Of a stretch of DNA of 64,000 bases, positions 1 to 63,135 are shown piece after piece (position 1 is the stretch's first letter; every line of letters starts with the position of its first letter). Location: NCBI GenBank assembly GCA_016182185.1, contig JACOXU010000001.1, positions 274,915 through 338,914 on the forward strand. The letters are read 5' to 3'. Position numbers and translations under genes: made by a program. Below the pieces are notes generated by a model. It was given only the letters and a program-made list of their open reading frames with translations, did not search any database and had not been told where the DNA came from. The stretch comes from Candidatus Levyibacteriota bacterium. GTDB lineage: Bacteria > Patescibacteriota > Microgenomatia > Levybacterales > UBA12049.

Positions 1-1300
1 CCTTTGCATTGAAATAATTTTGCTGAACAAAATACTGATTTAAGTAATATAAAAAATTAAACATAAAAAATAAAAAACAAAAAGAGTATATAAAATATTT
101 TATTTGTATATTTGATATTTTATATTTGATATTTGATATTTTTTGTAAAGCAAAAAGAATTCCTATTGCTGTAAAAATTTGAAATGTTGGTAGAAAGTTA
201 AGTGTTCTGACAGCATGTGGTACTCCGCTTGTGACAGAAGCAGGAATCGGTGCTATTAAAAACCAGGCTAAAACTAAGAACTTTGTCTTTTTATCAAAAT
301 TTCCGAAAATTAAGCAGTATATTCCAATCAAAAGAAAAGGTAATTCAAAAAGATACAAAAGTCCCATATTGGGTGCATGATGCCTCGCAATATCACCTGT
401 GATAAAAAGCCAATTTAGATCAAAATGCGAAACATATCCAGAAACTACTGATTTAGCAAAAGCAATTCGTCTATTATCAAATAACAATCCTAACGTATCA
501 TTATTTTTTTGATCTTCTATTAGTTTTTTGGCATTCTCTTCAAGAAGATTGGTAGTTTCTGAAAAAACACTAACCCCCTTGGCTCTTCCCAGCGCGTTTT
601 TATCAGTTATCGTATAAGACACAATCGGAATCGAAATTAATAATCCAGCTATTGCTGCCAGGAAAATATATTTTTTGGGTATTGAAAAAAGTTCTTTTCT
701 AAAGATTATAATCATGGCCAAAAGTAGAATTGGGGCAAAAACTTTTTCGCTTTGATAAATGTATAGATTTATTGCCATAAAAAATGCCGAAAATACTAGA
801 AACCACGGTTTTTTGAGACCCTTAATAAAAAACAGCACTGAAAAAACATTGAAAGAAAGACCCACGTTTGACTCGAATGCAATTCTTGAAAACTGGATAT
901 GCCAAGGCGAAATAGCAAGCAAGAATGAAGATAAAAGTGCAATTTCTTCTTTTCTGAACAATTCTTTAATTAAAAAATATATTGCAAAAACTGTCATAAC
1001 TCCAAATACTGCAGAAGGAAAACGAACTGAAAAAACAGTCAGATCAAATATTGCAATTGAAGGAATAGTAAAGTAGGTGTAAAATGCAGGCTTATAGTCG
1101 TCAAAGGAACGTAAAATAACAGGAAATAGTTTTCCATATTCATCGCGCCCAGTTTGCATAATTGAGTATGCATTATACCCAAGAGCTACTTCATCCCAAT
1201 CTGGAGATATTGGAACCTCCCCAAGCTTCCAAAGTCTTAGAATTGTAGCTAGAGCTATTATTCCGATTAATAAAATTAAAATAACCTTTTTATTCATAAG
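1..1300 (-). CDS. ArnT/PMT-like (GT39/GT83-like) GT-C fold membrane glycosyltransferase, family A paralog; partial, C-terminus runs off window start
   Basis: Reverse-strand translation from ATG at 1300 is open through position 1: MNKKVILILLIGIIALATILRLWKLGEVPISPDWDEVALGYNAYSIMQTGRDEYGKLFPV...LLAISPWHIQFSRIAFE. It is collinear with the paralogs at 1316-2989, 2986-4650 and 4661-6331. It is absent from the ORF track because it has no stop inside the window. Confidence 0.65.
102..144. repeat. Heptanucleotide tandem repeat (ATTTGAT-like, about 6 units) inside the partial family A gene
   Basis: atttgta tatttga tatttta tatttga tatttga tattttt. It encodes ...QKISNIKYQISNIKY... on the minus strand. 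Confidence 0.7.
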
Positions 1301-1315
1301 TCATAAGGCTTACAC

Positions 1316-2989
1316 CTATCTTGTAAACGCCGCTAGAACAGGCTTACCATTCAACAAATAAAACGTTTTAAGCTGTTTAGATTTACTTGGAATTTTATCT
1401 GGCGTACTGATGAAAAGTATTTTTTTCTTATCATTATTTACCAAATCAAGTCTATCCATAAAACGGTATTTATCAAAGGAAAAAACATCAACAAAACCAT
1501 TTACATCTCTATTAATCTCTGCTGTTTCTCTAAACTTACTAGGATTGTAATTCGTGTAAAATAAGTAATATATGTACGGTCTTCCAAGTGAAGATATTAT
1601 TCTTACCTCATCATAGTTATCGTATTGCTGAGAAACGTAATGAATCGATTCCTTATATCCATACTGCCACTCACCAGAATAAATTCTTGGATAATGGACT
1701 ATATAATCACGGAAGAAATATAAAAAATTGAGAAATAATAGCGATAATAAGAGTAAAATTATAGCAATTCTATATTTTTTTACAAAACTTATTAAATTTA
1801 TAAAACCATAGGCAGTAATAATCTGAAAAGTTGGTAACGTCGCTTCAATTCGCAGAGCATGAGGAGTTTCCCGAGCCGTTCCTGCCGGAATTATTCCTAA
1901 AATCAGCCACAATGGAATAATCCACCAAAATCCTTCCTTTTTTTTTATCAGTAAAAATATTCCAGAAATTAAAAAGACTAAATCCCATAGATACATTTGA
2001 CCTACTGTTTGTGTGGAAAACTTGGGATTGCCATCGCCTTTTATGAAAAGAAAGTTAGGGTTTAAATTGTCAAAATAATGCTTAAGATATGAAACACCAT
2101 ATGCTAAGCGGCGATTATGAAGAATTTTTGACCAAAAGGAATTGTTGTCGTTTGCTATTTCTTGGTTTGTATTGGTAATAATTCCAATATCTGAGAAGAT
2201 GTTTACTTCCCTGAACCTAAGACTTGCTTGAGGAGAAAGTAAAAAATTGACTGATGGGATTATTAATAAAATGCCAAGAATAACTGCAAAAATAACTTGC
2301 TTCTTAATCTTGAATAACTCCTTTCGAAAACCTATTGCCAATGCCAAAATTAAAAGCGGGGAAACAATTCGTGCAGTGTTGAAAGTGTATAAAGAAATTG
2401 CAAGCGAGATTATTGAAAGGATAATAAACCATCTGCTTCCTTTAACCGCCCAGAGAAAAAAGATTACTCCCGCAATGATAAAAAACGTTGCGACATTTGC
2501 TTCAAAGGCGGCGCGGGAAAGCATAATATGCCAAGGACTGATTGCCAGAATTAAAGCTGAAAACAAAGCATATAACTCAGTATTTAGTATTTTGTATTTA
2601 GTATTTTGTATTTGTTTAGGATTTAAGATTTCGGATTCAGAATTTGTTTTGAATAGCGTTTTTACTAAAAAGTATGTCATCAATACAGTCAAAACTCCGA
2701 AAAAGGCAGATGGAAAGCGAACACTAAATTCCGAAAGACCAAAAATTTTCACAGGAATTATAGCAAGATATGCATAAACCGGAGGTTTAAAATCGCCAAA
2801 TGACTCCAGATAATCCAAGGGCAAAAATCTTCCGAATTCATCTCGGGCTTCTTTGCCCAGCGAATAAGCATTATATCCCCACGCTGCCTCATCCCAGGTT
2901 AGAGATGGCGGGTTCTGTCCCAGCTGATAAAACCGTAAAAAAGAAGCAATTAATAATATAAAAAATAGAAATATGTAAATTTTTTTCAT
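1316..2989 (-). CDS. ArnT/PMT-like (GT39/GT83-like) GT-C membrane glycosyltransferase, family A paralog
   Basis: 557 aa, multi-TM. The N-terminal loop carries the conserved D-E (WDEAAWGYNAYS) and ISPWH motifs typical of 4-amino-arabinose/dolichyl-P-mannose protein mannosyltransferase-like enzymes. Confidence 0.7.
   Translation of the reverse strand: MKKIYIFLFFILLIASFLRFYQLGQNPPSLTWDEAAWGYNAYSLGKEARDEFGRFLPLDYLESFGDFKPPVYAYLAIIPVKIFGLSEFSVRFPSAFFGVLTVLMTYFLVKTLFKTNSESEILNPKQIQNTKYKILNTELYALFSALILAISPWHIMLSRAAFEANVATFFIIAGVIFFLWAVKGSRWFIILSIISLAISLYTFNTARIVSPLLILALAIGFRKELFKIKKQVIFAVILGILLIIPSVNFLLSPQASLRFREVNIFSDIGIITNTNQEIANDNNSFWSKILHNRRLAYGVSYLKHYFDNLNPNFLFIKGDGNPKFSTQTVGQMYLWDLVFLISGIFLLIKKKEGFWWIIPLWLILGIIPAGTARETPHALRIEATLPTFQIITAYGFINLISFVKKYRIAIILLLLSLLFLNFLYFFRDYIVHYPRIYSGEWQYGYKESIHYVSQQYDNYDEVRIISSLGRPYIYYLFYTNYNPSKFRETAEINRDVNGFVDVFSFDKYRFMDRLDLVNNDKKKILFISTPDKIPSKSKQLKTFYLLNGKPVLAAFTR
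2581..2615. repeat. Heptanucleotide tandem repeat (TATTTAG/TATTTTG, 5 units) inside the family A gene 1316-2989
   Basis: tatttag tattttg tatttag tattttg tatttgt. It encodes QIQNTKYKILNTE in the loop before the ISPWH motif. Confidence 0.7.
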
Positions 2990-4650
2990 GATATAAGTTT
3001 TACAATATAATAAACAGATTTTGAATAAACTCCGTCAATCTTTTTCAAAACTTCAAACTTGTATTGTCTTTTTTCAGATTGAATTAAATTATTTTGAGAA
3101 TTAAAATCCTCAGAAGACAAAATAAATATTGTATTTCCCTTTATATATGATGACAAATCTGAAGTTGCAAAATTTATTCCCTCTCCCCTATCCCACTGTG
3201 AAATGCCAAAATGAATATTTTCAAATCCATCAATACTTCCACTTTTCTGGTATAAAGATGGCTGGTATTTAAGATAAAACAGCATATAAATATAAGGGCG
3301 CCAAAAGTAGCCTGTCACATAAATGTTATCGTACTTACTTTTATTTTCTTTTACAAACTGTGCCATTTGTTTATGCCCGTCGCCCCAAACTAGAGATGTA
3401 TGATATGGCTGATAATCAAAGTAAAGAACCAGAAAACGGATGAAAAAGAAGATAAAAACAATTACAAATAGGCTCAAATAAAATTTAAAAAATCTATTTT
3501 TTTTCAAAATATTATATAAATAATAAATTCCCATTGCTGAAAACAGAACTACGACAGGAACGTTAGGCAAAGTTCTGAATGGATTAGGCTGCTGCGTTGT
3601 AAGCCCTCCTACGATTGGGACTGCGAAAAACCAAGCAATAAAAATCCATTTCCATTTTTCTTTTATTCTAAATAAGAAATAGATTCCCAGAAGCACAAGG
3701 GGAGCTTCCCAAAGATACATAAGACCCATGGGTCCTGTACCAGTGGCAAAATAAAAATCCGGAGCCAAATTCTTAAGATAATTTTCTGAAAATTGCTGGA
3801 GATAGGCAATGCGCCTGTTATATATAATCTTTGAAAGTAAAGAATTATTATTTCTTAAAATTGCCTGTGAGTATGGATTAGTATAACTTTTATCCTCAAG
3901 AATGCTGACTGTATTTACTCTCGTTAAACCAACAGGATTAAGAATATTGAAAAGAATAGGAATAGAAAATATAACTCCCAGAATAATACCTGCTGTCACC
4001 CATTTCTTAATTTTTAAAAATCTGTCTTTATAGATAAGAAAGAAAACCAAAAAAACAATTGGGATTAAAATTCTTGAAGTATAGTAAAAATAAAACGAAA
4101 TAACTGCTGACATTACAGAAGCTATAAAGAAAGATGGATTTTTAAATGTTTTAACAAGAAGCAAAATTGAAAGTACAATAAAAAAGAGGCTTCCATTTGT
4201 TTCAAATGCTGCTCTTGAAAAATTAATATGCCAGGGAGATATAGCCAGAAGTAGAGCCGCTACTTCTGGAATTTCTAATTTCCAATTTTTAATTTCTAAT
4301 TTAAGGTTTGTATTACGAAATAATTCTTTGAGTAGAAAATAAAAAGCGATAATCGTGAGAACTCCAAGAAAGGCGGAGGGAAACCGAACACCAAATTCAT
4401 TAAGGCCGAATATTTTCTCGGAAATCGCAACTGAATAAATCATTCCTGGAAGCTTTGAATCATCAAAAGAACGAAAGAAAATCGGCCAAGGATTGCCGTA
4501 TTCATCTTTTCCCGTAGTCAATATTGAGTAGGCATTATAACCTATGGCAGCCTCATCATGTGAAACACCGGGAGGAATCTGACCTAAATCCCAAAACCGC
4601 AAAATAATACCTATAAAAATAATAACAGTCAGAAATATATATTTTTTCAT
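2986..4650 (-). CDS. ArnT/PMT-like GT-C membrane glycosyltransferase, family A paralog
   Basis: 554 aa with HDEAAIGYNAYS and ISPWH motifs. It overlaps its neighbour by 4 nt, consistent with translational coupling. Confidence 0.7.
   Translation of the reverse strand: MKKYIFLTVIIFIGIILRFWDLGQIPPGVSHDEAAIGYNAYSILTTGKDEYGNPWPIFFRSFDDSKLPGMIYSVAISEKIFGLNEFGVRFPSAFLGVLTIIAFYFLLKELFRNTNLKLEIKNWKLEIPEVAALLLAISPWHINFSRAAFETNGSLFFIVLSILLLVKTFKNPSFFIASVMSAVISFYFYYTSRILIPIVFLVFFLIYKDRFLKIKKWVTAGIILGVIFSIPILFNILNPVGLTRVNTVSILEDKSYTNPYSQAILRNNNSLLSKIIYNRRIAYLQQFSENYLKNLAPDFYFATGTGPMGLMYLWEAPLVLLGIYFLFRIKEKWKWIFIAWFFAVPIVGGLTTQQPNPFRTLPNVPVVVLFSAMGIYYLYNILKKNRFFKFYLSLFVIVFIFFFIRFLVLYFDYQPYHTSLVWGDGHKQMAQFVKENKSKYDNIYVTGYFWRPYIYMLFYLKYQPSLYQKSGSIDGFENIHFGISQWDRGEGINFATSDLSSYIKGNTIFILSSEDFNSQNNLIQSEKRQYKFEVLKKIDGVYSKSVYYIVKLIS
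4271..4305. repeat. Heptanucleotide tandem repeat (ATTTCTA-like, 5 units) inside the family A gene 2986-4650
   Basis: atttcta atttcca attttta atttcta atttaag. It encodes LKLEIKNWKLEI in the same loop position as the tract in the neighbouring paralog. Confidence 0.7.
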
Positions 4651-4660
4651 AAGCTTTCCT

Positions 4661-6331
4661 CTATTTTACCTTAAGAACCGAAAAAACATCTGAATTGTCA
4701 CCCCTTTTAATTTTTTTAAGTAATTTGAAACTATCTATATCTTTGCAAAGGAAACTGTTTACGTATAGAACATTTGTTTCTCCAACAAGAACCTTGCTAT
4801 CATTTTTCTTTTCTATTCTCAAAGGACATTCGTCTTGAGAGAAAACGTATTTTCCAAATCCAATTCTATCAAAATCATTAATCTTGGGGTTTCTTGTTTC
4901 CTCTTGAAAGGCAATAGGATCGTATTTGCTGTAAAACAAGAAAAAAATAGCCGGAGCTGATTCTCTGTCCGTAATTACTGCCCTTTTGTAGGTAGGTAAA
5001 AGATTATTTACGACAGCAACTAGCTCCTTATACCCATCTTGCCTATACCATGGTCTATAGTGACTAAGATGGACATAATACTGATGTAAATAGCTCAGAA
5101 GCCCAAAAAGAAAAAATATAAAAATAATCACTATTAAAAAAAGCGAAAAAAATGTTTGCTTTTTAAGTAATGAGTATAGAGAAAAAAATCCATAAGCACT
5201 TATAATTGAAAGAGCGGGAAAGAAAATTAAGGTTCTTTGTACATTGGGAACATCATCCGAAGTAAGCGCGCTTCCAACAGGAACAAGAAAAATCCATCCA
5301 AGCAAAAAGACACCCTTTCTAAAATTGTTTTTAAGAAGCATCCATATTCCGAATAGTAAAAACGGCAATTCTATTAAATAGATTGGACTTATCTGAGGAA
5401 CTCTATACCTATCAGGGAGGCCTTGGTCTTCGAAAAGAAAGTCAAAGGAAAAGTGAGCGAAATAATTTTGGAAAAATTGAGAGGTATAACCTATAACTTT
5501 ATTATGAAAAGTACGAGAAAGAAATATCGGAACATTCGAAACACCATCTTCTCTGATCTGCTGATTTACTTCAAGTTGTGTTTGACTGCTTGAAAAAATA
5601 CTTACAGTTTTTATTCGTAAAGTCAAACTATCTGAAGAAAGAATCAGAAAAACCGGAATAATTATAGTTAATATAAACAGAAAAATTGAAGTTTTGAATC
5701 TCTTAAGCTCTAATTTGGACCAAAATGAAATAATAAATAATAATGGTATGAAAAAAGGAAGAAAAGCTCTAGGCGCCTGGTAAAAAAAGAGCGTTAGGCT
5801 GAAAATTAAAAAGGAGGCTATTAATAAAATTAAATTCTTTTTTCTGACCCATAAAAAAAATAAAAGTGTTGTAACTGAAATCAAAAAAACAACAATTGTA
5901 TTTTCTGTCGCAGTTCTTGCCAGATTTATATTCCAGGGAGAAACTGCAATAAATAAAGAGGCAAGGAGTCCAATTTCGGATTTGTGTTTTTTCTCTCGAA
6001 AAATTTCCATCGTAAGGAAATAAGTTATCAAAATAGTCAGACTTCCAAAAAGAGCAGAGGCAAAACGCACAGAAAAAACCGATAATCCAAATAAATATAT
6101 AAATGGAATTGACAAGTAAGAATATCCCGCAGGGCTATATAGAAATGATTTGAGATGTAAAGGTAGAAAATTTCCCGTAATATCTTTACCCGTTAAAAGA
6201 ATTGAGTAGGCATTATAGCCTAGAAATGCTTCATCCCTATGAAGTCCAACAGGAATTTCTCCAAGCCTATAAAGCCTCAGCACTAATCCCAGAATGAAGA
6301 TTAAAACTAGAAAGAAAATATATTTTTTCAA
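4661..6331 (-). CDS. ArnT/PMT-like GT-C membrane glycosyltransferase, family A paralog
   Basis: 556 aa with RDEAFLGYNAYS and VSPWNI motifs and the same multi-TM architecture. Confidence 0.7.
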   Translation of the reverse strand: MKKYIFFLVLIFILGLVLRLYRLGEIPVGLHRDEAFLGYNAYSILLTGKDITGNFLPLHLKSFLYSPAGYSYLSIPFIYLFGLSVFSVRFASALFGSLTILITYFLTMEIFREKKHKSEIGLLASLFIAVSPWNINLARTATENTIVVFLISVTTLLFFLWVRKKNLILLIASFLIFSLTLFFYQAPRAFLPFFIPLLFIISFWSKLELKRFKTSIFLFILTIIIPVFLILSSDSLTLRIKTVSIFSSSQTQLEVNQQIREDGVSNVPIFLSRTFHNKVIGYTSQFFQNYFAHFSFDFLFEDQGLPDRYRVPQISPIYLIELPFLLFGIWMLLKNNFRKGVFLLGWIFLVPVGSALTSDDVPNVQRTLIFFPALSIISAYGFFSLYSLLKKQTFFSLFLIVIIFIFFLFGLLSYLHQYYVHLSHYRPWYRQDGYKELVAVVNNLLPTYKRAVITDRESAPAIFFLFYSKYDPIAFQEETRNPKINDFDRIGFGKYVFSQDECPLRIEKKNDSKVLVGETNVLYVNSFLCKDIDSFKLLKKIKRGDNSDVFSVLKVK

Positions 6332-14079: not shown

Positions 14080-15009
14080 TCATTCAATAAATTCTGTAAT
14101 TTCTCTATCGGTTTTGCTAAATAATTTTTGAGCCCTGAAACTTGATTTTATAATTTTTGGAAATAAAATTAAAGCCCTAAAAAAACCTAGAAAAAAAGCT
14201 GAGTCTAATCTCAATATTGCCATGATCAAATGATAAGGTAGCCACAATATATGAAGTATTTGTAAATCAAAATCTGTCGCATTTTCCCATACGAAAATAA
14301 ATTGATTTCTGTATGATACTACTTTTATTTCATAATCTGAATATTTACTCTTTATTGATCCTTTTTCATGCTCGTGAACAACGATACTTTTAGGTTCAAA
14401 TTGTATTTTGTATCCTGATTTAAGAGCCCTATAGGAAAGATCAATGTCCTCCCAGTAAAAAGGTGAATAAAGTTCATTAAATCCTGAAAGTTTATCCCAA
14501 ATAAATTTTCTAAATGACCCGCTTCCGCCGCTTACCCAAAGAGTGTCATTTTTACCTACTTCTCCTCTTTGATGGACTAGAAACCCTTTCTGCCATCTGC
14601 CTATGCCTCTACCCCGAAGCACTGCTTTACTCTTCTCAATACTTTTATCCATACAACCTACTGCAAAAATCCTTTCATCATCAAAATGCTCTATCAATGG
14701 CTCAAGAAAATTCTTTTCAGGAGCAACATCCGTATTTAATAGTACTAAAATATCCCCACTTGCATCTTCTACCCCACGATTTACACTTCTTGCAAATCCC
14801 AAATTCCTTTCATTCTTAATTAGTTTGAGGTTTGAGATTTGAGGTTTGAGATTTGAGACTGTTGATATACTTTCATCAGTTGATGCATCATCAACTATTA
14901 TTATTTCCACATCCCCATGATAAAACTTTGCAGCCTCTATAACCCTTGGTAAATTTTTTTTTAGAAGAACTTCTCCATTATAATTTGGAATAATAATACT
15001 TAGATTCAT
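14080..15009 (-). CDS. GT2 family glycosyltransferase
   Basis: MNLSIIIPNYNGEV...IIVDDASTDES...NTD (DXD). It contains a heptamer repeat tract at 14824-14858. Confidence 0.65.
   Translation of the reverse strand: MNLSIIIPNYNGEVLLKKNLPRVIEAAKFYHGDVEIIIVDDASTDESISTVSNLKPQISNLKLIKNERNLGFARSVNRGVEDASGDILVLLNTDVAPEKNFLEPLIEHFDDERIFAVGCMDKSIEKSKAVLRGRGIGRWQKGFLVHQRGEVGKNDTLWVSGGSGSFRKFIWDKLSGFNELYSPFYWEDIDLSYRALKSGYKIQFEPKSIVVHEHEKGSIKSKYSDYEIKVVSYRNQFIFVWENATDFDLQILHILWLPYHLIMAILRLDSAFFLGFFRALILFPKIIKSSFRAQKLFSKTDREITEFIE
14824..14858. repeat. Heptanucleotide tandem repeat (TTTGAGR, 5 units) inside the GT2 gene 14080-15009
   Basis: tttgagg tttgaga tttgagg tttgaga tttgaga. It encodes SNLKPQISNLK. 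Confidence 0.75.
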
Positions 15010-17285
15010 AATAAAGAATTAGAAAAAACTACCTCGTGTTTTCCCTCTTCAATCACAATGCCTCTAAAATCGAAGTTTGTGAGATATATCTTGGTAGATA
15101 CACCATCAATCTCCGCACGCCAAGTTGGATAAAAACTATCAGTCAAAACCAGGAATCCTTTATTCTCATTTTCTGTATTGATAATAATTTTATTAGAACG
15201 ATATTCAACAATATTTACTTTTCCGTTTTTATTACCAACCTGTGAATCTTCAAAGTTTTCAACTATTGCTGTTTTGAAGGGATCGAAATCGGATCTAAAT
15301 ATCTCATTAATTGCCTCTGTTTTACCAGCAACATTTTTCACTTCATTGACAAAAAAAGCTCGAGGTAGTACATTTTTATTTTCATAAACTCTTGCTTCTC
15401 CTTCCTGAAAAACTTTAACTAAAGCACCTGATTTAAGATCAGCCAAACTTAGAATATATTTAACTCCCAAAAGATCTATAATTTTCGAAGAATAATTATA
15501 CGGAGTAATAATTCTATTGAAGCCAAACGGAGGTTTGATGTTCGGCACTCCTCTTTTTGATGCAGTAATTAATTCAGCATATCTGCGTAAATATAAAGGG
15601 TCATAACCTTCTATGCTCTGGATTTTATATATTATCGAAAAGTTAGGAGGCAAAATTCTTGAATCCGTACTCATAACTCTAAAATTATCATTTTTTTCTT
15701 GAAGGAAGGACAAAATTTTCGTTTGTGGAAATAAATAATCTTTTTTTGTAAAAGGCGTGAATTTCCAGCCGGCTCTAAACAAATCAAAAATAGTTATGGA
15801 TAATACTAGAACGGAAAAAACAAGAAAAACATTTTTGTTTTTTTTATGAAAAAAAATATAAAAAAATATTGATAAACTAGACAAAAGAAAAATTAGAGTC
15901 GGTAAGACAATATTTCTTTTTGCAACGAGTAAGTTATCAATAATTAAATTTTTATCGATGTTTCTTCCGTAATAAACAAATAACCAAAGACAAATTAATA
16001 TTATCAAAATAAATATGATCGGATGGAAAATTTCCTTCTTATTTTTCATTTTCAAGAAGTAGTCAAAACCAAATGAAGCAAGAACTGCCAAAGAAAAATC
16101 AGTCAGAAATAGCAATCGCGTAGGTTGGGTTGTATTTATAAAAGGAATGTTTAGAATAAAAGGAATTTTCGCAAATATTGTTGGGAGTGCAAGAATAAGT
16201 GAGAGAAAAAATATTGTACCAAAAAATAGAGTTTTCCTATCGCGACGAAAGAAAAGAGAATACAGGGAAAAAATAAGCGGAAAGACACCGATATAACCTA
16301 AAAATTCTCCATAATTCCATTCTCCCCAGTAATTAAGCGTCGTAGGGTTTCCAAAAAAATCAGGAGCAATAAATTGAATTAAATTCTGCCAGGGAATAAA
16401 CCAACCGGGGTTTTGCCATGGAATTTGATCAACGCTTCGCGCTGAAAATAAAATAAATTGAAAGAGCGGATACCACTGAACGAAAGTTAATATAAAAAAT
16501 AAAAGATAAAAAATCAAAAAAATAAACAAAATTTTTTTTATTCTACCGTACTGAGCCCATCTTACAATTAAGTACACCGTAGAAGTAATAAATAAATAGA
16601 AGAATGTTTGCAAATGTCCCGCAAAGAATGCTGATGTCAGAGAAAGTACGAATATTAAACCCCAAATTAAAAAATTTTTATTTTTGATACTTAATACTGA
16701 ATACTTAATACTGAATACTATTTTATCCGTCGCTAATAATATAAGGGGTAGCCAAAGAGCGGTATGCAGGATTGTGTTCCATTCCATCCAAGCAATCGAA
16801 AATCCGGAAAATGAGAATGTAATCGAACCTATTATACCTGCCCATCTATTTAATTTAAAATTATTTAGATATAAAAATAAAAATATTCCAGCTAAAAGAG
16901 GCTGGAGAATAATTAGAATACTCCAAGAGAAATTAAATGGGAGTATAAAAAATAATAAATTTAACGGATAAAGTGCTGCCGATTGGTGATTTGCCAAAAG
17001 CGGTGTTCCTGCAAAATTATACGGATTCCATAATGGCAGCTCTAAGTTCTTCTCAAGATTAATTGCTAAATACCTCCATGGGTATTGCTGCCTCACTGGA
17101 TCCGTAATCAGGAAATTTTTAAATGGCACTCCTCGAGGAAATTCTTTTGAGTATAAATCGCGGAATGGATGATAAAGCCCTACAATTGTGTCGGATGGAA
17201 TAGGATACAAACTTTTAAAAATAAATTGCCAAAAAAATGTAAAAGCAATAAAAATTATAAAAAATATTGGTAATAATCTTTTCAC
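15006..17285 (-). CDS. YfhO-like GT-C membrane glycosyltransferase, family C paralog
   Basis: 759 aa with LPLWNPYNFAGTPLLANHQSAALYPL and the same architecture as 10956-13361. It overlaps the GT2 gene by 4 nt. Confidence 0.6.
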   Translation of the reverse strand: MKRLLPIFFIIFIAFTFFWQFIFKSLYPIPSDTIVGLYHPFRDLYSKEFPRGVPFKNFLITDPVRQQYPWRYLAINLEKNLELPLWNPYNFAGTPLLANHQSAALYPLNLLFFILPFNFSWSILIILQPLLAGIFLFLYLNNFKLNRWAGIIGSITFSFSGFSIAWMEWNTILHTALWLPLILLATDKIVFSIKYSVLSIKNKNFLIWGLIFVLSLTSAFFAGHLQTFFYLFITSTVYLIVRWAQYGRIKKILFIFLIFYLLFFILTFVQWYPLFQFILFSARSVDQIPWQNPGWFIPWQNLIQFIAPDFFGNPTTLNYWGEWNYGEFLGYIGVFPLIFSLYSLFFRRDRKTLFFGTIFFLSLILALPTIFAKIPFILNIPFINTTQPTRLLFLTDFSLAVLASFGFDYFLKMKNKKEIFHPIIFILIILICLWLFVYYGRNIDKNLIIDNLLVAKRNIVLPTLIFLLSSLSIFFYIFFHKKNKNVFLVFSVLVLSITIFDLFRAGWKFTPFTKKDYLFPQTKILSFLQEKNDNFRVMSTDSRILPPNFSIIYKIQSIEGYDPLYLRRYAELITASKRGVPNIKPPFGFNRIITPYNYSSKIIDLLGVKYILSLADLKSGALVKVFQEGEARVYENKNVLPRAFFVNEVKNVAGKTEAINEIFRSDFDPFKTAIVENFEDSQVGNKNGKVNIVEYRSNKIIINTENENKGFLVLTDSFYPTWRAEIDGVSTKIYLTNFDFRGIVIEEGKHEVVFSNSLL
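16687..16721. repeat. Heptanucleotide tandem repeat (ATACTKA, 5 units) inside the YfhO-like gene 15006-17285
   Basis: atactta atactga atactta atactga atactat. It encodes SIKYSVLSIKN. Confidence 0.7.
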
Positions 17286-36313: not shown

Positions 36314-37519
36314 TTATTTTTTAGCTCTTACTATATTATTTAAAGCATATACTGCTCCTGTTAATGCCAGTGATAATATTATCCCAGCTGAGGTAAGCCA
36401 AAACAATATTTGAGGAACAGGATAATTCCAGTCGCCTTTTAATAAAAATGGGATATATTGTGAAAGCGAGAAAAAAGACATAGTCAAAACAGGAATTAAA
36501 ATATAATATTTTTTGCTTGTTAGACTTACAAAAGGAATTACCAGAAGTAAATACCACGGTTGAAAATTCGTTCTGATAGATACAACAACTACCGCCCCTA
36601 CCATCATAACAGTAATTAAATTTATCAAAAACACGAAATTAATTTGTCGTTTTTTGTAGAAAAAGTAACTTGCTAAATAAACTGGGAATATTAAACCGGT
36701 GGCAAATTTAATTCCTGCCGATAATCCAAGTCCGATCCATGAAAAAATATTTTTTTTATTCAAAAAAAGAAATAGGGAAAAAATTGCAAAAAACATCATG
36801 AGAATATCGTTATGAGAGGAGACTAATCCTTCAATAATTATCAATGGGTTAAATGCGAAAAAAGCAAGTCCAAAAAGACTTTCCTTTGGAGAAACCTTAA
36901 TTAAAATCTTTTCAATAAAATAGGCTGTTCCTAAATAACCTAGGCTCATTAAAAATTTAAAAAGAAAAAAAGTGGGAAGAAAAAAATTGAGTCCGATGAA
37001 TGAAAGTGGAATCGTCAATACCAACCAGAAGGGGCCATATGGATAAAATCTGTGAGTCCAATGCATAAATGAAAGCATGGGGTCATTGGGAAAATCCAAT
37101 GCTTTGTGGGTATATGGATTTTGCTGGTAATAAGTTACGATCTTTGCATCAAAAATATAGTTGAATAAATCATGAGAAAACGCATTGTAAGAAAAGGATA
37201 GAATTATACCTGTAGCAATAATTAAAATCCACAACTGCTGCCTTTTGAATCTATGACTATTAATAAATATCAAATGTAATCCATAGAAAACAAACAACAA
37301 AAATATTATTAAACTGTAAAATCCCGTAGATAATGGACGGTTGAAATATCCAATTTGCTGAAAAAATTTTTGTACTACCTGCCAATATGACCATTGAGAC
37401 AAGGTAAGACTTAAATCGACTTGGGTAAAAGAGTAAAGGAATAATCCGACAATGGTTAATAAATATCCAATGCTAATAAATTTTAAATTTGAAATTTGAA
37501 ATTTGAAATTGGACATCAT
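36314..37519 (-). CDS. Polytopic membrane protein (possible GT-C-like mannosyltransferase)
   Basis: 401 aa with about 10 TM segments. The N-terminus carries a heptamer repeat (MMSNFKFQISNLKFISIG). Confidence 0.4.
   Translation of the reverse strand: MMSNFKFQISNLKFISIGYLLTIVGLFLYSFTQVDLSLTLSQWSYWQVVQKFFQQIGYFNRPLSTGFYSLIIFLLFVFYGLHLIFINSHRFKRQQLWILIIATGIILSFSYNAFSHDLFNYIFDAKIVTYYQQNPYTHKALDFPNDPMLSFMHWTHRFYPYGPFWLVLTIPLSFIGLNFFLPTFFLFKFLMSLGYLGTAYFIEKILIKVSPKESLFGLAFFAFNPLIIIEGLVSSHNDILMMFFAIFSLFLFLNKKNIFSWIGLGLSAGIKFATGLIFPVYLASYFFYKKRQINFVFLINLITVMMVGAVVVVSIRTNFQPWYLLLVIPFVSLTSKKYYILIPVLTMSFFSLSQYIPFLLKGDWNYPVPQILFWLTSAGIILSLALTGAVYALNNIVRAKK
37478..37512. repeat. Heptanucleotide tandem repeat (AAATTTG, 5 units) at codons 3-13 of gene 36314-37519
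   Basis: aaatttt aaatttg aaatttg aaatttg aaattgg. It encodes SNFKFQISNLKF immediately after the start codon. Confidence 0.75.
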
Positions 37520-38283
37520 TATCTGTAAGTTCCTTTTATTGAATTTATTTTTATTTTAATAAGATCAAAAAATCCATCTATTGAATCCCTGAGAGGGCTG
37601 ACTCTTCTTGTTTCAACATAAAGCCAATTTACGGGAACTTCCTTTATCTTATATTTCATTTTCTGGGCAAGAAATAAAAGTTCTACATCAAAACCGGCAG
37701 AAACTTTTGATCCGGAAACTTCAGAAAATCCTTTGTTAATTCTATTTATCTTTTCAAAAAGTTTTTTTGCAACATCATGACGGAATGCCTTAAATCCGCA
37801 CTGAGTATCAGAAATGCCTTTTATTCCTACTATTATACTTCGCAATAACATCATTCCTCTTGCCATCACAAGTCTTGTCCAAGGGGCTCCCTTTCTTTTT
37901 GAATTTCGAGATCCAATAACAATATCAAAACCCTTATCTAAATACGGCATGATTTTGTCAATTTCCTCAATTGGTGTTGCTTGATCCATATCAGTAAAAA
38001 CGACGTATTCTCCTGAAGCTTCAAGTACTCCTTTTGTAACCGCTCCTGCCTTGCCGAGATGGTTATTCTTAATGATTCTAAACTCTGGATTATCTTTTAC
38101 AAACTTTTCCGCAAAATCCACACTTCCATCGGTTGATCCGTCATCTACAATGATAACTTCGAAGCTGTATTTTTGTTTTGTCAGAAAATGTAAAACTTTA
38201 TCCAAAACACCCTTTTGTAGATTGGCCATCTCGTTATAAGAAGGAATGACTACCGAGAGAAAAGGATTATTCATCCTATCCAT
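37519..38283 (-). CDS. GT2 glycosyltransferase, dolichyl/polyprenyl-phosphate sugar synthase-like; first gene of the array
   Basis: LSVVIPSYNEMANL...IIVDDGSTDGS...VFTDMDQATP. TGTATAAT lies directly upstream of the ATG, suggesting a leaderless or near-leaderless start. Confidence 0.7.
   Translation of the reverse strand: MDRMNNPFLSVVIPSYNEMANLQKGVLDKVLHFLTKQKYSFEVIIVDDGSTDGSVDFAEKFVKDNPEFRIIKNNHLGKAGAVTKGVLEASGEYVVFTDMDQATPIEEIDKIMPYLDKGFDIVIGSRNSKRKGAPWTRLVMARGMMLLRSIIVGIKGISDTQCGFKAFRHDVAKKLFEKINRINKGFSEVSGSKVSAGFDVELLFLAQKMKYKIKEVPVNWLYVETRRVSPLRDSIDGFFDLIKIKINSIKGTYR

Positions 38284-39468: not shown

Positions 39469-39476
<8 letters not shown>
39078..39476 (-). CDS. Hypothetical protein (Cys-containing, possible Zn-ribbon); doubtful
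   Basis: 132-aa ORF in the GC-rich island. Its start codon overlaps tRNA-Glu by 8 nt on the opposite strand. It has no recognisable motifs apart from CEFKPGC...SCGNKH. Confidence 0.25.
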
Positions 39477-39544
<68 letters not shown>

Positions 39545-61059: not shown

Positions 61060-61359
61060 ATGAATAGACAAGAGAAAATAAATGGTTCAAGAAGAATCTC
61101 TGTGCATGATATGCCTGATTTTACTGCCGCACTGGAGCAGTACGGAGAGATATTAAAAACGACAGGGGTGCCTCCTGCCCGCGCAGAAGCATGTACAATG
61201 GGTATTATAGATAAAGCATCAACAAAAAGAGAAGAGGCTAATAGGTTTATTAATTTTGTTGCAAAATTATCTAAAGAAATTCAGAATGGAAATGGAAATC
61301 ACCAAGAAGAGGTCGTCGTTTTCAGCGCTAAAAATGGTTCAGGGAATGGATCGGCGTAA
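61060..61359 (+). CDS. Hypothetical 99-aa protein downstream of the attenuator-like leader
   Basis: ORF with higher GC than neighbours and no recognisable motifs. It overlaps the recJ 3' end convergently by 21 nt. Confidence 0.35.
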   Translation: MNRQEKINGSRRISVHDMPDFTAALEQYGEILKTTGVPPARAEACTMGIIDKASTKREEANRFINFVAKLSKEIQNGNGNHQEEVVVFSAKNGSGNGSA

Positions 61360-63135
61360 ATCCTTGATCTTAAGCTGGAGCTTGCTGTTTCCATTCCATT
61401 CATTTTTTTCAATTTGATAGACAAGATCAATTCTGTCGCCTATTCGAATTTCATTTGAACGCTCACCCATCCCAAACCCTATGCCTTCAATTTTGAGATT
61501 TGAAATTTGAGTTTTGAGATTTAATTTTAGGTGCCTCCCATCCATTCCGACCAGTCTCATATCTTCAATAATTATATTTTTACTCACAAAGGCAGGTTGG
61601 GAATTCCCCATTCCAAACGGAGCAAGTTTTTGCAAAACATTATAGAATTCTTCATTCAAATAATTAATATCAAATTCACAATCGATATAAAGACTTCTGA
61701 CAAACAAGTCTTGAGTTAAAATTTTATCCGCGAGTTTTTCAAGTTTTTTTTGAAGAAGCTCAAGGTTTATTGTTTCGACTGTAAATCCTGCAGCCATCGG
61801 ATGGCCTCCGACATCGACTAATAAATCTGATGCGCTTCTGATAAACTCGACTATATTGAATCCGCTGATCGACCTTGCTGATGCCTTAGAATAAATTTCT
61901 CCTTTTGAGATAACAATAGAGGGTCGATAAAATTCCTCAACTAATTTTCCTGCTATCAATCCGATGACTCCCTGCTGGTACGATTTATCTGCTATTAAAA
62001 GAAGTTTTGGAATTTGTGATTTGGAATTTGTGATTTGAAGTCTTGCGTGTTCAAAAGATTTAAGTGTGATTTCTTGTCTTTTTCTATTGGTATGCCCTAA
62101 TTTGTAAGCCAGATCTTTCGCTCTTTCTTTACTCTTAGTACAAAGGAGTCTTAAGCTATCCATTGCGTACTCAAGCCTGCCCATGGCATTAAGACGCGGA
62201 GCAATAATATGTCCAATTTCATATACGCCAATTAAAACTTGATCGATTCCCGTTTCTTCAATTATTGCCAAAAGGCCGGGTCTTTTGGTTTTCCTTAATT
62301 CCTCAAGACCGAATTTTACAAAAGTCCTATTTGCACCCTTTAAAGGAACCAGATCCGCAATTGTTGCCAAAGCAACAAGTTCAAGATGTCCAAGCGAGGA
62401 GTCCACAAAATTTTCGTTGTGAGCTTTTGCGCCACCTGCGTTTCGGGTTGAGGGAGATTTGACCGCACTGCGAACACGAAAATTTTTGCGGGCGACTTCA
62501 GCATTTATTTCTTGCGCCAGCAAGAATGCTACTCCTGCCCCGCAGACTTGTGTAGTATGGACAAAACTGTAGGCTTTGGGCAATTTTTGTGCCGATACAT
62601 GATGATCTGTAATAATTACATCAATCCCCTCTCTATTGGCAAGATCGACGGCATCATTTGCTACAATTCCATTATCAACAGTGATAATCAAAGAACAATT
62701 TTTTCCGTCCAACTGGCGGATTAAATTTTTAATTCCTGTCTTCGACAGTCCGTACCCTTCATCCATTCTGTGAGGAATATATGGCAATACTTTTGCACCT
62801 AAATCATTTAAGGTTTCCCATAAAATAGCAGTCCCGCAAATTCCATCTACATCATAATCACCATAAATAACAATTTCCTCCTTGCTTATAATCGCTCTAT
62901 TGATTCGGGCAATCGCTTTCTTAAGCTGTTTTTTATCGATGCCAACACTTGAAATCGTTACATCTGAAAGCTTTGGATTTAAAAATTTTTCCTTTTCTTT
63001 TTCGGTTTTAATTCCCCGATTTTCAAGAAGAACGTTTAAAATTTCTTCGATCTTTAATTTTTTATTTTTTATTTTGCCCGCCCCGCTTCGCTTGTCGAGG
63101 CCGGGGAATTTATTTACGATTTTCCATTTTTTCAT
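61339..63135 (-). CDS. recJ: Single-stranded-DNA-specific exonuclease RecJ (DHH/DHHA1)
   Basis: DHH motifs IYGDYDVDGICGTAIL and VIITDHH, a DHHA1-like region (GGHPMAAG) and a C-terminal OB-like domain. 598 aa. It contains two heptamer repeat tracts and GC-rich insert patches. Confidence 0.85.
   Translation of the reverse strand: MKKWKIVNKFPGLDKRSGAGKIKNKKLKIEEILNVLLENRGIKTEKEKEKFLNPKLSDVTISSVGIDKKQLKKAIARINRAIISKEEIVIYGDYDVDGICGTAILWETLNDLGAKVLPYIPHRMDEGYGLSKTGIKNLIRQLDGKNCSLIITVDNGIVANDAVDLANREGIDVIITDHHVSAQKLPKAYSFVHTTQVCGAGVAFLLAQEINAEVARKNFRVRSAVKSPSTRNAGGAKAHNENFVDSSLGHLELVALATIADLVPLKGANRTFVKFGLEELRKTKRPGLLAIIEETGIDQVLIGVYEIGHIIAPRLNAMGRLEYAMDSLRLLCTKSKERAKDLAYKLGHTNRKRQEITLKSFEHARLQITNSKSQIPKLLLIADKSYQQGVIGLIAGKLVEEFYRPSIVISKGEIYSKASARSISGFNIVEFIRSASDLLVDVGGHPMAAGFTVETINLELLQKKLEKLADKILTQDLFVRSLYIDCEFDINYLNEEFYNVLQKLAPFGMGNSQPAFVSKNIIIEDMRLVGMDGRHLKLNLKTQISNLKIEGIGFGMGERSNEIRIGDRIDLVYQIEKNEWNGNSKLQLKIKDLRRSIP
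61492..61526. repeat. Heptanucleotide tandem repeat (TTTGARA-like, 5 units) inside recJ
   Basis: tttgaga tttgaaa tttgagt tttgaga tttaatt. It encodes KTQISNLKIEG. Confidence 0.7.
62005..62039. repeat. Heptanucleotide tandem repeat (ATTTGTG/ATTTGGA, 5 units) inside recJ
   Basis: ttttgga atttgtg atttgga atttgtg atttgaa. It encodes QITNSKSQIPK. Confidence 0.7.

What the first reader, a model, noticed from the sequence alone, without database searches (positions are those of the whole stretch)
37478..37519. Heptamer tract immediately after the start codon of gene 36314-37519: possible translational on/off switch
The AAATTTG x5 tract occupies codons 3-13 (MMSNFKFQISNLKF). A one-unit change would shift the frame almost at the N-terminus and abolish the protein entirely. 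This is the geometry used by classical phase-variable genes, in which repeats sit in the 5' coding region.
Basis: partly seen in the sequence, partly recalled or inferred. Interest (0 to 1): 0.55.

Follow-up and report, generated by a model that had tools for sequence, protein, structure and literature searches.

The report
In-frame heptamer repeat at gene start
A short 7-base repeat does sit just after the start codon of a membrane glycosyltransferase gene in a Levybacteria (CPR) genome, but it is one of many in-frame heptamer repeats in this lineage, and the evidence favours a tolerated slippage product that changes in 21-base (7-amino-acid) steps over a dedicated on/off switch.

Summary
The tract is real: mRNA ATG ATG TCC (AATTTCA)x3 AATTTAA AATTT at window 37478-37510, codons 4-14 of a 401-aa GT-C glycosyltransferase whose ATG overlaps the stop of the upstream GT2 gene. 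No alternative start lies downstream, so the tract is coding. A change of 1 or 2 units gives a 9-24 aa peptide with no rescuing start.

It is not a one-off. The window holds about 10 period-7 arrays (0.03 expected), all in frame inside ORFs, including mid-gene sites and RecJ. Another 1.27 Mb of Levybacteria DNA holds 34 (0 expected).

Across 120 homologue clusters the N-terminal tail is bimodal, 20 or 27 aa, a difference of exactly three heptamers. All 24 long orthologous tracts are in frame with the conserved start, and no OFF allele was found.

Indirect evidence of heterogeneity exists: 8 of 23 contig ends in five metagenome assemblies of this strain fall inside four tracts, including this one. 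Neither the allele nor its frame could be resolved.

Verdict: a lineage-typical coding heptanucleotide repeat encoding a dispensable N-terminal extension. It is capable of frameshift knock-out, but use as a switch is not shown. With only three perfect units it is below the usual phase-variation criterion.

The parts
37478..37510 (-). Heptanucleotide tract, mRNA (AATTTCA)x3 AATTTAA AATTT. Encodes NFKFQISNLKF (codons 4-14).
37514..37519 (-). Tandem ATG ATG start codons. The first ATG overlaps the TAA stop (37519-37521) of the upstream GT2 gene (TAATG), suggesting translational coupling.
37530..37536 (-). Shine-Dalgarno-like AAAGGAA, 11 nt upstream of the first ATG, inside the 3' end of the GT2 gene.
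   Evidence: read directly from the sequence; not tested further
36314..37519 (-). Host gene: 401-aa polytopic GT-C glycosyltransferase (Pfam GT87 borderline, precomputed PF26314 MptA_B_family; NCBI name 'DUF2029 domain-containing protein', Candidatus Levybacteria MAG).
37519..38283 (-). Upstream GT2 family glycosyltransferase gene (254 aa), coupled to the host gene.
2579..2613 (-). Sister tract (AATACAA/AATACTA alternating, perfect 14-nt period) in the GT39/PMT_2 gene 1316-2989, codons 126-137. It is a loop insertion relative to paralogues, and a Logan contig ends at 2584.
4270..4302 (-). Sister tract (imperfect) in the GT39/PMT_2 gene 2986-4650, codons 117-127. It adds 7 aa relative to paralogue 4661-6331.
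14824..14858 (-). Sister tract (CTCAAAT/CTCAAAC) in the GT2 gene 14080-15009, codons 51-62, peptide VSNLKPQISNLK. Two Logan contigs start at 14855.
16687..16719 (-). Sister tract (AGTATTC/AGTATTA) in the YfhO-family gene 15006-17285, codons 189-200. It assembled through in SRR12113430.
61492..61522 (-). Sister tract (imperfect) in RecJ 61339-63135, codons 538-548, inside the OB domain. It adds about 4 aa relative to solved RecJ.
62006..62037 (-). Sister tract (perfect 14-nt period) in RecJ, codons 367-377. It aligns without gaps to ordinary residues of solved RecJ. Two Logan contigs start at 62035.
49..141 (-). Two further period-7 arrays (49-83 and 101-141) within an open frame that runs off the window start.

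Best explanation
The tract is a coding heptanucleotide simple-sequence repeat, one of many produced by a lineage-wide bias toward 7-nt slippage in Levybacteria. Selection then filters these repeats so that only stop-free, in-frame versions in tolerant protein segments persist.

At this locus the ancestral N-terminal coding sequence ATG TCA AAT TTC AAA TT (MSNFKL, already about 2 units) has gained three units (21 nt). This adds one 7-residue heptad (FQISNLK) to a short, poorly constrained cytoplasmic tail before transmembrane helix 1.

The tract evolves by in-frame 21-nt steps. Slips of 1 or 2 units would abolish the protein and are removed by selection rather than used as a regulated switch.

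Shown: the tract is real, coding and non-random; the phenomenon is lineage-wide; tail length is quantised in 7-aa steps; all orthologous tracts are in frame; out-of-frame alleles would be null.

Inferred: slippage as the generating mechanism, the dispensability of the tail, and the absence of adaptive switching.
For: - Period-7 arrays: 9-10 in the window against 0.03 expected, and 34 in 1.27 Mb of other Levybacteria against 0 in shuffles, with periods 4-6 essentially absent.
- All 10 window tracts lie in frame in long ORFs, at codon positions from 4 to 548 and in unrelated proteins (GT-C, GT2, PMT_2, YfhO, RecJ).
- Tracts are loop insertions of +7 aa and about +18 aa in two PMT_2 paralogues. 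In RecJ they fall in a linker and an OB-domain hairpin.
- The N-tail length of 120 homologue clusters is bimodal: 20 aa (46 clusters) and 27 aa (21 clusters). The two heptads are more alike within a lineage than between lineages.
- Of 133 distinct orthologous 5' regions, 24 have long tracts of 20-39 nt, and all 24 are in frame with the conserved junction start. That start is canonical in 16 and CTG or ATA in 8.
- No tract-length differences occur within same-species contig sets.
- AlphaFold gives pLDDT 57 for residues 1-10 and above 92 for TM1.
- Many homologues have shorter tails.
- Published background: heptanucleotides are the most abundant long SSR class in many bacteria, attributed to polymerase slippage (Mrazek 2007, as summarised in PMC4679880 and PMC4692102).
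Against: - Contig ends in Logan assemblies of this same strain are strongly enriched at tracts. Eight of 23 mapped ends fall in four tracts that together with the other tracts make up about 0.5% of the window.
- In SRR12113420 the two contigs overlap by exactly k-1 = 30 nt inside this tract. That requires a real graph branch, i.e. a second allele present at 2 or more reads.
- The break coordinates at three tracts equal those predicted for longer alleles. The tracts may therefore be considerably more mutable than 'stable coding sequence' implies.
- Repeats recur at this N-terminus across many species while their unit sequences turn over. This could reflect selection to keep a repeat there.
- The host gene is of the class typically phase-varied in pathogens (cell-envelope glycosyltransferases).
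- Consensus assemblies cannot reveal minority OFF subpopulations.
Confidence: 0.6

Rival explanations
1. Genuine contingency locus. The tract slips by single units at appreciable frequency, switching this GT-C glycosyltransferase (and perhaps the other tract-bearing envelope genes) ON and OFF in subpopulations and so diversifying the cell surface of the CPR bacterium.
For: - The unit length is not a multiple of 3, the tract covers codons 4-14, and there is no rescue start. States with 1, 2, 4, 5 or 7 units give 9-24 aa products.
- The host is an envelope glycosyltransferase in a gene cluster of about 37 kb of such enzymes.
- Assemblies break at this tract in 3 of 5 samples with a k-1 overlap, at coordinates predicted for expansion alleles. 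The same holds at the 62006 and 2579 tracts.
- N-terminal SSR enrichment is a recognised signature of phase variation.
Against: - There are only 3 perfect units, below the cut-off of 5 or more used for long units.
- All 24 long orthologous tracts are in frame, where one third would be expected if the phase were sampled at random.
- Tail lengths differ by exactly 3 units.
- Equivalent tracts sit mid-gene and in RecJ, where switching makes little sense.
- No truncated or length-variant proteins exist in the 90% clusters.
- The break coordinates are also compatible with in-frame +21 alleles and with many other variants that start at the same base.
- One perfect tract (16687-16719) assembled through.
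Confidence: 0.22
2. Peptide-level function. The encoded heptad (hydrophobic residues at positions i and i+4 or i+3, with Lys and Asn between) forms a short amphipathic N-terminal helix needed for membrane insertion, topology or partner binding. The nucleotide periodicity is a by-product of duplicating that heptad.
For: - The same type of peptide (..NLKxQISNLK..) recurs in three unrelated proteins of the window and in many orthologues.
- The lysines precede TM1, which fits the positive-inside rule (established knowledge).
- The model draws residues 3-33 as one continuous helix.
Against: - Two thirds of homologue clusters lack the second heptad, and some have almost no tail.
- pLDDT is low for residues 1-10.
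- Peptide similarity follows automatically from related AT-rich stop-free heptamers read in all three phases.
- Identical tracts also occur in intergenic DNA in other Levybacteria.
Confidence: 0.06
3. Cis-acting nucleic-acid element. The array of 7-nt units just downstream of the start codon is bound, one protein per heptamer, by an RNA- or ssDNA-binding protein (for example a cold-shock or S1-like OB-fold protein), or it keeps the initiation region unstructured and so tunes translation initiation.
For: - The tract abuts the start codon, and the mRNA around it has no significant structure (MFE -9.7 kcal/mol, z = -0.63).
- A comparable idea was proposed for TAACTGA heptamer repeats directly upstream of start codons in Beggiatoaceae, with CspB noted to bind heptamer repeats.
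Against: - Most sister tracts are hundreds of codons from any start.
- Unit sequences differ between tracts.
- There is no Rfam family and no conserved structure.
- No candidate binding protein was identified here.
Confidence: 0.05

Closest known systems
SSR-mediated translational phase variation (contingency loci), e.g. tetranucleotide repeats in Haemophilus influenzae LOS and mod genes, the CTCTT repeat in Neisseria opa, and poly-G tracts in Campylobacter surface-glycan genes
   Same: A repeat whose unit is not a multiple of 3 lies in the 5' coding region of a cell-envelope glycosyltransferase. A one-unit change shifts the frame and gives a null allele.
   Different: - It has only 3 perfect units, against typically 5 to more than 30.
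- No OFF alleles were found in 24 long orthologous tracts.
- Equivalent tracts are scattered mid-gene and in housekeeping genes.
- The organism is an environmental CPR bacterium, not a host-adapted pathogen.
- Reversibility and switching rate are untested.
Over-represented heptanucleotide long SSRs in bacterial genomes (Mrazek et al. 2007), including cyanobacterial STRR heptamers, Xanthomonas/Nostoc GGGNATC repeats (PMC4692102) and Beggiatoaceae/cyanobacterial TAACTGA repeats (PMC4679880)
   Same: There is a specific genome-wide excess of period-7 tandem arrays with few copies each (about 4-5 here; a preference for 4 units or 2-6 copies in those systems), with no excess at neighbouring periods.
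   Different: - Those families use one dominant unit and are mainly intergenic and under-represented in ORFs.
- Here the units are diverse and AT-rich. In the window all tracts are intragenic and in frame, and 21 of 34 are in long ORFs in other loci.
- They cannot form G-quadruplexes.
7-bp repeats controlling hmw1A/hmw2A adhesin expression in H. influenzae (PMC8262952, listed; details from memory)
   Same: A heptanucleotide unit is used for expression variation of a surface factor.
   Different: Those repeats lie in the promoter or 5' region, number about 10-30 copies, and grade transcription. They are not a short in-frame coding tract.
Small dispersed repeats (SDR) inserted in tandem heptameric repeats of Nostoc (Elhai et al. 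2008, Genome Res 18:1484). The citation was confirmed, but the content is from memory because the paper is not held.
   Same: Very small (15-32 nt) GC-rich, hairpin-capable segments are found inside heptamer tracts. One 30-mer is identical in two species and in two different genes.
   Different: - The phylum differs.
- The elements here are in frame within coding sequence.
- Only two copies of the 30-mer were found in about 1.9 Mb examined.
- Mobility is inferred, not shown.

Membership tests
SSR-driven translational phase-variable (contingency) gene | The repeat unit is not a multiple of 3 and lies inside the CDS downstream of the real start codon | tested here: met
   The 7-nt unit covers codons 4-14. 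The only in-frame starts upstream of the invariant YSFTQVDL motif are the ATG ATG at 37514-37519, at the conserved junction with the upstream GT2 stop.
SSR-driven translational phase-variable (contingency) gene | The tract is long and perfect enough for high-frequency slippage (working cut-off of 5 or more repeats for units longer than 2 nt) | tested here: not met
   There are 3 perfect units plus 1 variant plus a partial unit. The cut-off is quoted from PhasomeIt.
SSR-driven translational phase-variable (contingency) gene | Repeat number varies between or within populations, including out-of-frame (OFF) alleles | tested here: inconclusive
   For variation: contig breaks with a k-1 overlap occur at the tract in 3 of 5 samples, at coordinates predicted for longer alleles. 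Against: no variant allele was recovered, all 24 long orthologous tracts are in frame, and the break coordinates are not specific to unit changes.
SSR-driven translational phase-variable (contingency) gene | Reversible ON/OFF expression at a rate well above the background mutation rate | not testable with these tools
   This needs read-level population data or a reporter assay.
SSR-driven translational phase-variable (contingency) gene | A frameshift yields a null product with no alternative start | tested here: met
   With 1, 2, 4, 5 or 7 units the product is 9-24 aa and there is no ATG/GTG/TTG in the body frame upstream of TM1.
Genome-wide heptanucleotide long SSRs (Mrazek 2007 class; STRR, GGGNATC, TAACTGA) | Statistical over-representation of period-7 tandem arrays specifically | tested here: met
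   The window has 9-10 against 0.03 expected. Other Levybacteria loci have 34 against 0, with periods 4-6 at about 0-1.
Genome-wide heptanucleotide long SSRs (Mrazek 2007 class; STRR, GGGNATC, TAACTGA) | One dominant unit sequence dispersed over the genome | tested here: not met
   Units differ between tracts (TCAAATT, CTCAAAT/C, AATACAA/TA, AGTATTC/A, ACTATCT, AGAATTC and others), although many contain CAAAT.
Genome-wide heptanucleotide long SSRs (Mrazek 2007 class; STRR, GGGNATC, TAACTGA) | Predominantly intergenic location | tested here: not met
   All 10 window tracts, and 21 of 34 in other loci, lie in frame in long ORFs.
Programmed -1 ribosomal frameshift site | A slippery X XXY YYZ heptamer in the zero frame followed by a stimulatory structure | tested here: not met
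   In the zero frame (AAU UUC AAA UUU CAA AUU UCA) no X XXY YYZ register occurs (read). There is no significant downstream structure.
GT-C fold glycosyltransferase using a lipid-linked sugar donor (GT87 / MptA-B-like) | Polytopic membrane protein with sequence or fold similarity to GT-C enzymes | tested here: met
   Pfam GT87 scores 24.5 bits, just under its cut-off of 25. PF26314 MptA_B_family is precomputed. The model has pTM 0.87. The most probable Foldseek PDB hits are GPI mannosyltransferase I, PimE, ALG12 and ArnT, but all have E above 0.001.

The most novel reading that the evidence does not exclude
Levybacteria (CPR/Patescibacteria) carry a dense set of hypermutable intragenic heptanucleotide tracts, about 150 per Mb in this genome. 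These tracts are length-polymorphic in natural populations and act as a 'phasome', stochastically knocking out and restoring cell-envelope glycosyltransferases. The tract at codons 4-14 of this GT-C gene would be the cleanest such switch. The tracts would also serve as landing sites for tiny (15-32 nt) in-frame GC-hairpin mobile elements shared between species.
Probability: 0.18. Interest if true: 0.7.

Novelty: new member of a known kind. Interest (0 to 1): 0.4.

Why it matters
If the tract were a working switch, it would be the first indication known to me that ultra-small, uncultivated CPR bacteria use SSR phase variation to diversify their surface glycans. That would bear on how these episymbionts attach to hosts or evade phages.

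Even under the conservative reading, the data document something little described: a lineage-wide excess of heptanucleotide repeats that lie mostly inside genes. The reading frame quantises them, giving 21-nt or 7-aa steps and a uniform size of about 33-35 nt. This is a clean natural example of mutation bias filtered by selection.

There is also a practical consequence. These tracts are recurrent breakpoints in k=31 metagenome assemblies. They can mislead gene callers about start codons: one lineage has three different called starts for identical DNA.

Tried and rejected
- **Downstream true start.** Rejected. There is no in-frame ATG/GTG/TTG between the tract and the invariant TM1 motif.
- **Assembly artefact.** Rejected. 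The identical tract is present in independent Logan assemblies and the NCBI MAG.
- **Coverage dropout as the cause of contig breaks.** Rejected for this tract. L003 and L006 from one sample overlap by exactly 30 nt, so both flanking 31-mers are present and a branch is required.
- **Using break coordinates to identify the alternative allele.** Expansions of +7, +14 and +21 all fit. Brute-force enumeration then showed that many SNPs and indels starting at the same base fit too, so the allele and its frame stay unresolved. The break at 14855 fits no unit change.
- **Prediction that every perfect tract breaks assemblies.** Failed for 16687-16719.
- **Search for length-variant or truncated proteins.** None found in the 90% clusters, nor through the downstream neighbour gene.
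- **Suspected frameshift allele in the P0057/P0061/P0110 lineage.** Rejected. The DNA is identical in more than 20 contigs, and only the gene-caller starts differ.
- **Same-species comparisons in 160 loci.** No tract differences were seen, but none of those species has a long perfect tract, so this is uninformative for this allele.
- **-1 PRF slippery site.** The register is not met.
- **RNA structure or a known RNA family.** None.
- **GCGAAGC mini-hairpin as a dispersed motif.** Not enriched: 5 matches against 3.1 expected.
- **GC-island scan for more mini-elements.** Dominated by conserved coding motifs and tRNAs.
- **The 30-mer in viral contigs.** Absent.
- **Literature.** No paper was found on heptamer repeats or phase variation in Patescibacteria. 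Elhai 2008 could not be read.
Full report
**Observation.** On the minus strand the mRNA reads AAAGGAACTTACAGATA ATG ATG TCC AATTTCA AATTTCA AATTTCA AATTTAA AATTT ATT AGC ATT GGA. TRF reports the array at 37478-37510: period 7, 4.7 copies, 96% matches. It has three perfect units, one variant unit and a partial unit, and covers codons 4-14 (NFKFQISNLKF) of ORF 36314-37519, which is 401 aa. The tract is far from chance. TRF finds 9-10 period-7 arrays in the window against 0.03 per window in 100 third-order Markov shuffles, with no excess at periods 4-6 or 8.

**Is the tract coding?** The first ATG overlaps the TAA stop of the upstream GT2 gene (TAATG), and an AAGGA lies 11 nt upstream. Between the tract and the invariant motif LYSFTQVDL (TM1; invariant columns in alignment A1) there is no in-frame ATG, GTG or TTG. 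Orthologues from 133 distinct loci start at the same junction with the upstream gene's stop.

**The host gene.** The protein is 100% identical to MBI2031296.1, a 'DUF2029 domain-containing protein' of a Candidatus Levybacteria MAG on a 617-kb contig. Pfam gives GT87 just under threshold, and the precomputed family is PF26314 MptA_B_family. An AlphaFold model (pTM 0.87) is an all-helical polytopic membrane protein. Its most probable PDB neighbours are GT-C enzymes (GPI mannosyltransferase I, PimE, ALG12, ArnT), though all have weak E-values. The gene lies in a run of about 37 kb of GT-C, GT2 and YfhO-type genes on the minus strand.

**Frame consequences.** With 0, 3 or 6 perfect units the product is 394, 401 or 408 aa. 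With 1, 2, 4, 5 or 7 units translation from the ATG ends after 9-24 aa, and the body frame has no start codon upstream of TM1. The tract is therefore mechanically able to act as an on/off switch.

**The tract is not special.** The other period-7 arrays in the window lie at:

- 49-83 and 101-141
- 2579-2613
- 4270-4302
- 14824-14858
- 16492-16526 and 16687-16719
- 61492-61522 and 62006-62037

All of them lie in frame inside long minus-strand ORFs, at codon positions up to 548. The hosts include two GT39/PMT_2 enzymes, a GT2, a YfhO protein and RecJ. Several encode nearly the same peptide (VSNLKPQISNLK, LNLKTQISNLK, NFKFQISNLKF), because related AT-rich, stop-free heptamers are read in all three phases over 21 nt. 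In the PMT_2 paralogues the tracts are insertions of +7 aa and about +18 aa at one loop. In RecJ one tract aligns without gaps to ordinary residues of solved RecJ, and the other adds about 4 residues in an OB-domain hairpin.

The phenomenon is lineage-wide. In 1.27 Mb around the orthologous gene from 80 other Levybacteria species there are 34 period-7 arrays against 0 in shuffles, while periods 4-6 are essentially absent. Of these, 21 lie in frame in long ORFs and 13 in short or no ORFs, and nearly all are 25-39 nt long.

**Comparative evidence at this N-terminus.** In 120 homologue clusters (57-74% identity) the distance from the start to YSFTQ is bimodal: 20 aa in 46 clusters (MSNFKL, MSKIKL and similar) and 27 aa in 21 clusters (MSNLKSQISNLK, MTNFKFQISNFKF, MSNVKCQMSNVKL and similar). 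The difference is exactly 7 aa, or 21 nt, or 3 units. The two heptads are more alike within a lineage than between lineages. This argues for recurrent in-frame expansion or homogenisation.

In 133 distinct orthologous 5' regions, 24 carry long tracts of 20-39 nt, many of them perfect. All 24 are in frame with the junction start, which is canonical in 16 and CTG or ATA at the same overlapping-stop position in 8. If the phase were sampled at random, one third would be in frame. Same-species contig sets show no tract differences, but none of them has a long uninterrupted tract.

**Population evidence.** Logan assemblies of five runs (SRR12113383, -384, -420, -422, -430) contain this strain at 100% identity. 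Of 23 mapped true contig ends, 8 fall inside four tracts: 37481 (twice) and 37510, 14855 (twice), 62035 (twice), and 2584. All tracts together make up only about 0.5% of the window.

In SRR12113420 one contig ends at ...AATTTAAAA and another starts at AATTTCAAATTTC..., overlapping by exactly 30 nt (k-1). Both flanking 31-mers are therefore present, and only a branch, meaning a second sequence sharing that 30-mer, can break the path.

A k=31 simulation shows that the observed coordinates at three tracts are those predicted for longer alleles (+7, +14 or +21), not for shorter ones. Several caveats apply:

- Exhaustive enumeration shows that many other variants starting at the same base give the same coordinate.
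- The break at 14855 fits no unit change.
- The second break predicted for a simple expansion is absent.
- The perfect tract at 16687-16719 assembled through.
- In-frame +21 alleles fit as well as frameshifting ones.
- Non-tract ends have ordinary causes: a tRNA shared between species at 39469-39541, a Nextera adapter, or featureless sequence.
- No alternative allele was recovered through neighbouring genes or protein clusters.

So heterogeneity at tract boundaries is likely, but its nature and frame are unknown.

**Interpretation.** The best-supported reading is that a lineage-wide 7-nt slippage bias generates these tracts. This matches the published observation that heptanucleotides are the most abundant long SSR class in many bacteria (Mrazek 2007, as summarised). 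Selection then keeps only stop-free, in-frame versions in tolerant segments. That accounts for four things: the uniform size of about 33-35 nt (a seed of about 2 units plus one 21-nt quantum), the 20/27-aa bimodality, the in-frame state of every orthologous tract, and the presence of tracts in housekeeping genes.

The tract here encodes an extra heptad on a short N-terminal tail that is poorly constrained (pLDDT 57 for residues 1-10) and absent from most homologues. The phase-variation reading remains possible, at about 0.2. It is weakened by the short perfect run (3 units against the cut-off of 5 or more), the lack of any OFF allele, and the lack of positional or functional specificity. A cis-regulatory RNA or protein-binding role and a peptide-level role are minor alternatives.

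**Comparison with known systems.** The tract works like a 5' coding SSR of a contingency gene but fails the tract-length criterion, and variation is unproven. It belongs to the class of over-represented heptanucleotide SSRs. It differs from the described families (cyanobacterial STRR, Xanthomonas/Nostoc GGGNATC, Beggiatoaceae TAACTGA), which use one unit and are mainly intergenic. I found no report of such repeats, or of phase variation, in Patescibacteria.

**Side observation.** GC-rich, hairpin-capable mini-inserts sit inside or next to these AT-rich tracts, and all are in frame:

- A 30-mer, CCCGGCCTCGACAAGCGAAGCGGGGCGGGC, is identical in the window's RecJ (63076-63105) and inside the N-terminal tract of this gene's orthologue in another species, L114.
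- A 15-nt hairpin, TCCGCC-ATG-GGCGGA, is invariant in more than 20 contigs.
- An insert of about 32 nt in L087 and L088 supplies a new ATG.

This recalls the small dispersed repeats in Nostoc heptamer repeats (Elhai 2008). That comparison is from memory; only the citation was confirmed.

**Verdict.** The tract is a new member of a known kind, a coding heptanucleotide SSR. Interest is moderate (0.4), mainly for the lineage-wide, frame-quantised repeat phenomenon and the hint of population heterogeneity, which read mapping would settle quickly.

Noticed in passing
window 63076-63105 (minus strand), and L114 at about 1001-1030: An identical 30-nt GC-rich segment, CCCGGCCTCGACAAGCGAAGCGGGGCGGGC (in frame, encoding PGLDKRSGAG), lies in the RecJ N-terminus next to a heptamer-like tract. 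It also lies inside the N-terminal heptamer tract of the target gene's orthologue in another Levybacteria species (about 59% protein identity). It looks like a tiny dispersed or mobile in-frame element. It is absent from viral contigs.
   Followed up: partly
L176-L184 (about 70 nt upstream of the YSFTQ motif); L087/L088 (5' region of the orthologue): Other GC-hairpin mini-inserts interrupt the orthologous heptamer tract. One is the 15-nt TCCGCC-ATG-GGCGGA (SAMGG), invariant in more than 20 contigs. The other is an insert of about 32 nt containing CTTGCGAAGCAAG, which puts the original ATG out of frame and supplies a new ATG. Gene callers gave three different starts (378, 392 and 400 aa) for identical DNA.
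   Followed up: partly
window 2579-2613, 14824-14858, 37478-37510, 62006-62037: Logan (k=31) contigs of the same strain from several SRA runs end inside these tracts: 8 of 23 mapped ends. Full-length RecJ, g1316 and g15006 proteins occur only in the NCBI MAG and never intact in a Logan contig.
   Followed up: yes
window 2582-2645: TRF also reports a degenerate 9.6-copy period-7 array (71% matches) extending the 2579-2613 tract. It is possibly an older, decayed expansion of two or three 21-nt quanta in the GT39 gene loop.
   Followed up: no
window 1316-38283 (minus strand): There is an almost uninterrupted run of about 25 glycosyltransferase-type genes (GT39/PMT_2, GT2, GT87-like, YfhO, PTPS-related membrane proteins), many with overlapping stop and start codons. 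This is an unusually large envelope-glycosylation cluster for a small CPR genome.
   Followed up: partly
L019, L093, L096, L101, L102, L134 (CTG); L110, L113, L120 (ATA), at the junction with the upstream GT2 stop: In about 10 orthologous loci the only in-frame codon at the conserved start position is CTG or ATA, overlapping the upstream stop (CTGA or ATAA). This suggests non-canonical initiation or termination-reinitiation coupling.
   Followed up: no
L008 17445-17478, L010 16112-16142, L014 9910-9939, L022 13659-13689, L038 18766-18790: A second recurrent tract site: five species carry heptamer tracts (ACTATCT/ACTATTT or GCTATAC units) at about codon 200-230 of a neighbouring protein of about 500-590 aa. 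This looks like another orthologous hot-spot for tracts. The window's own copy has none.
   Followed up: no
window 39469-39541: A tRNA gene. Three Logan contigs from three samples start inside it (39512-39514), the usual break at sequence shared between species. It served as a control for the tract-associated breaks.
   Followed up: yes
L170 positions 1-19: The Logan contig begins with the Nextera transposase mosaic-end sequence AGATGTGTATAAGAGACAG, which is adapter contamination in a public assembly.
   Followed up: yes
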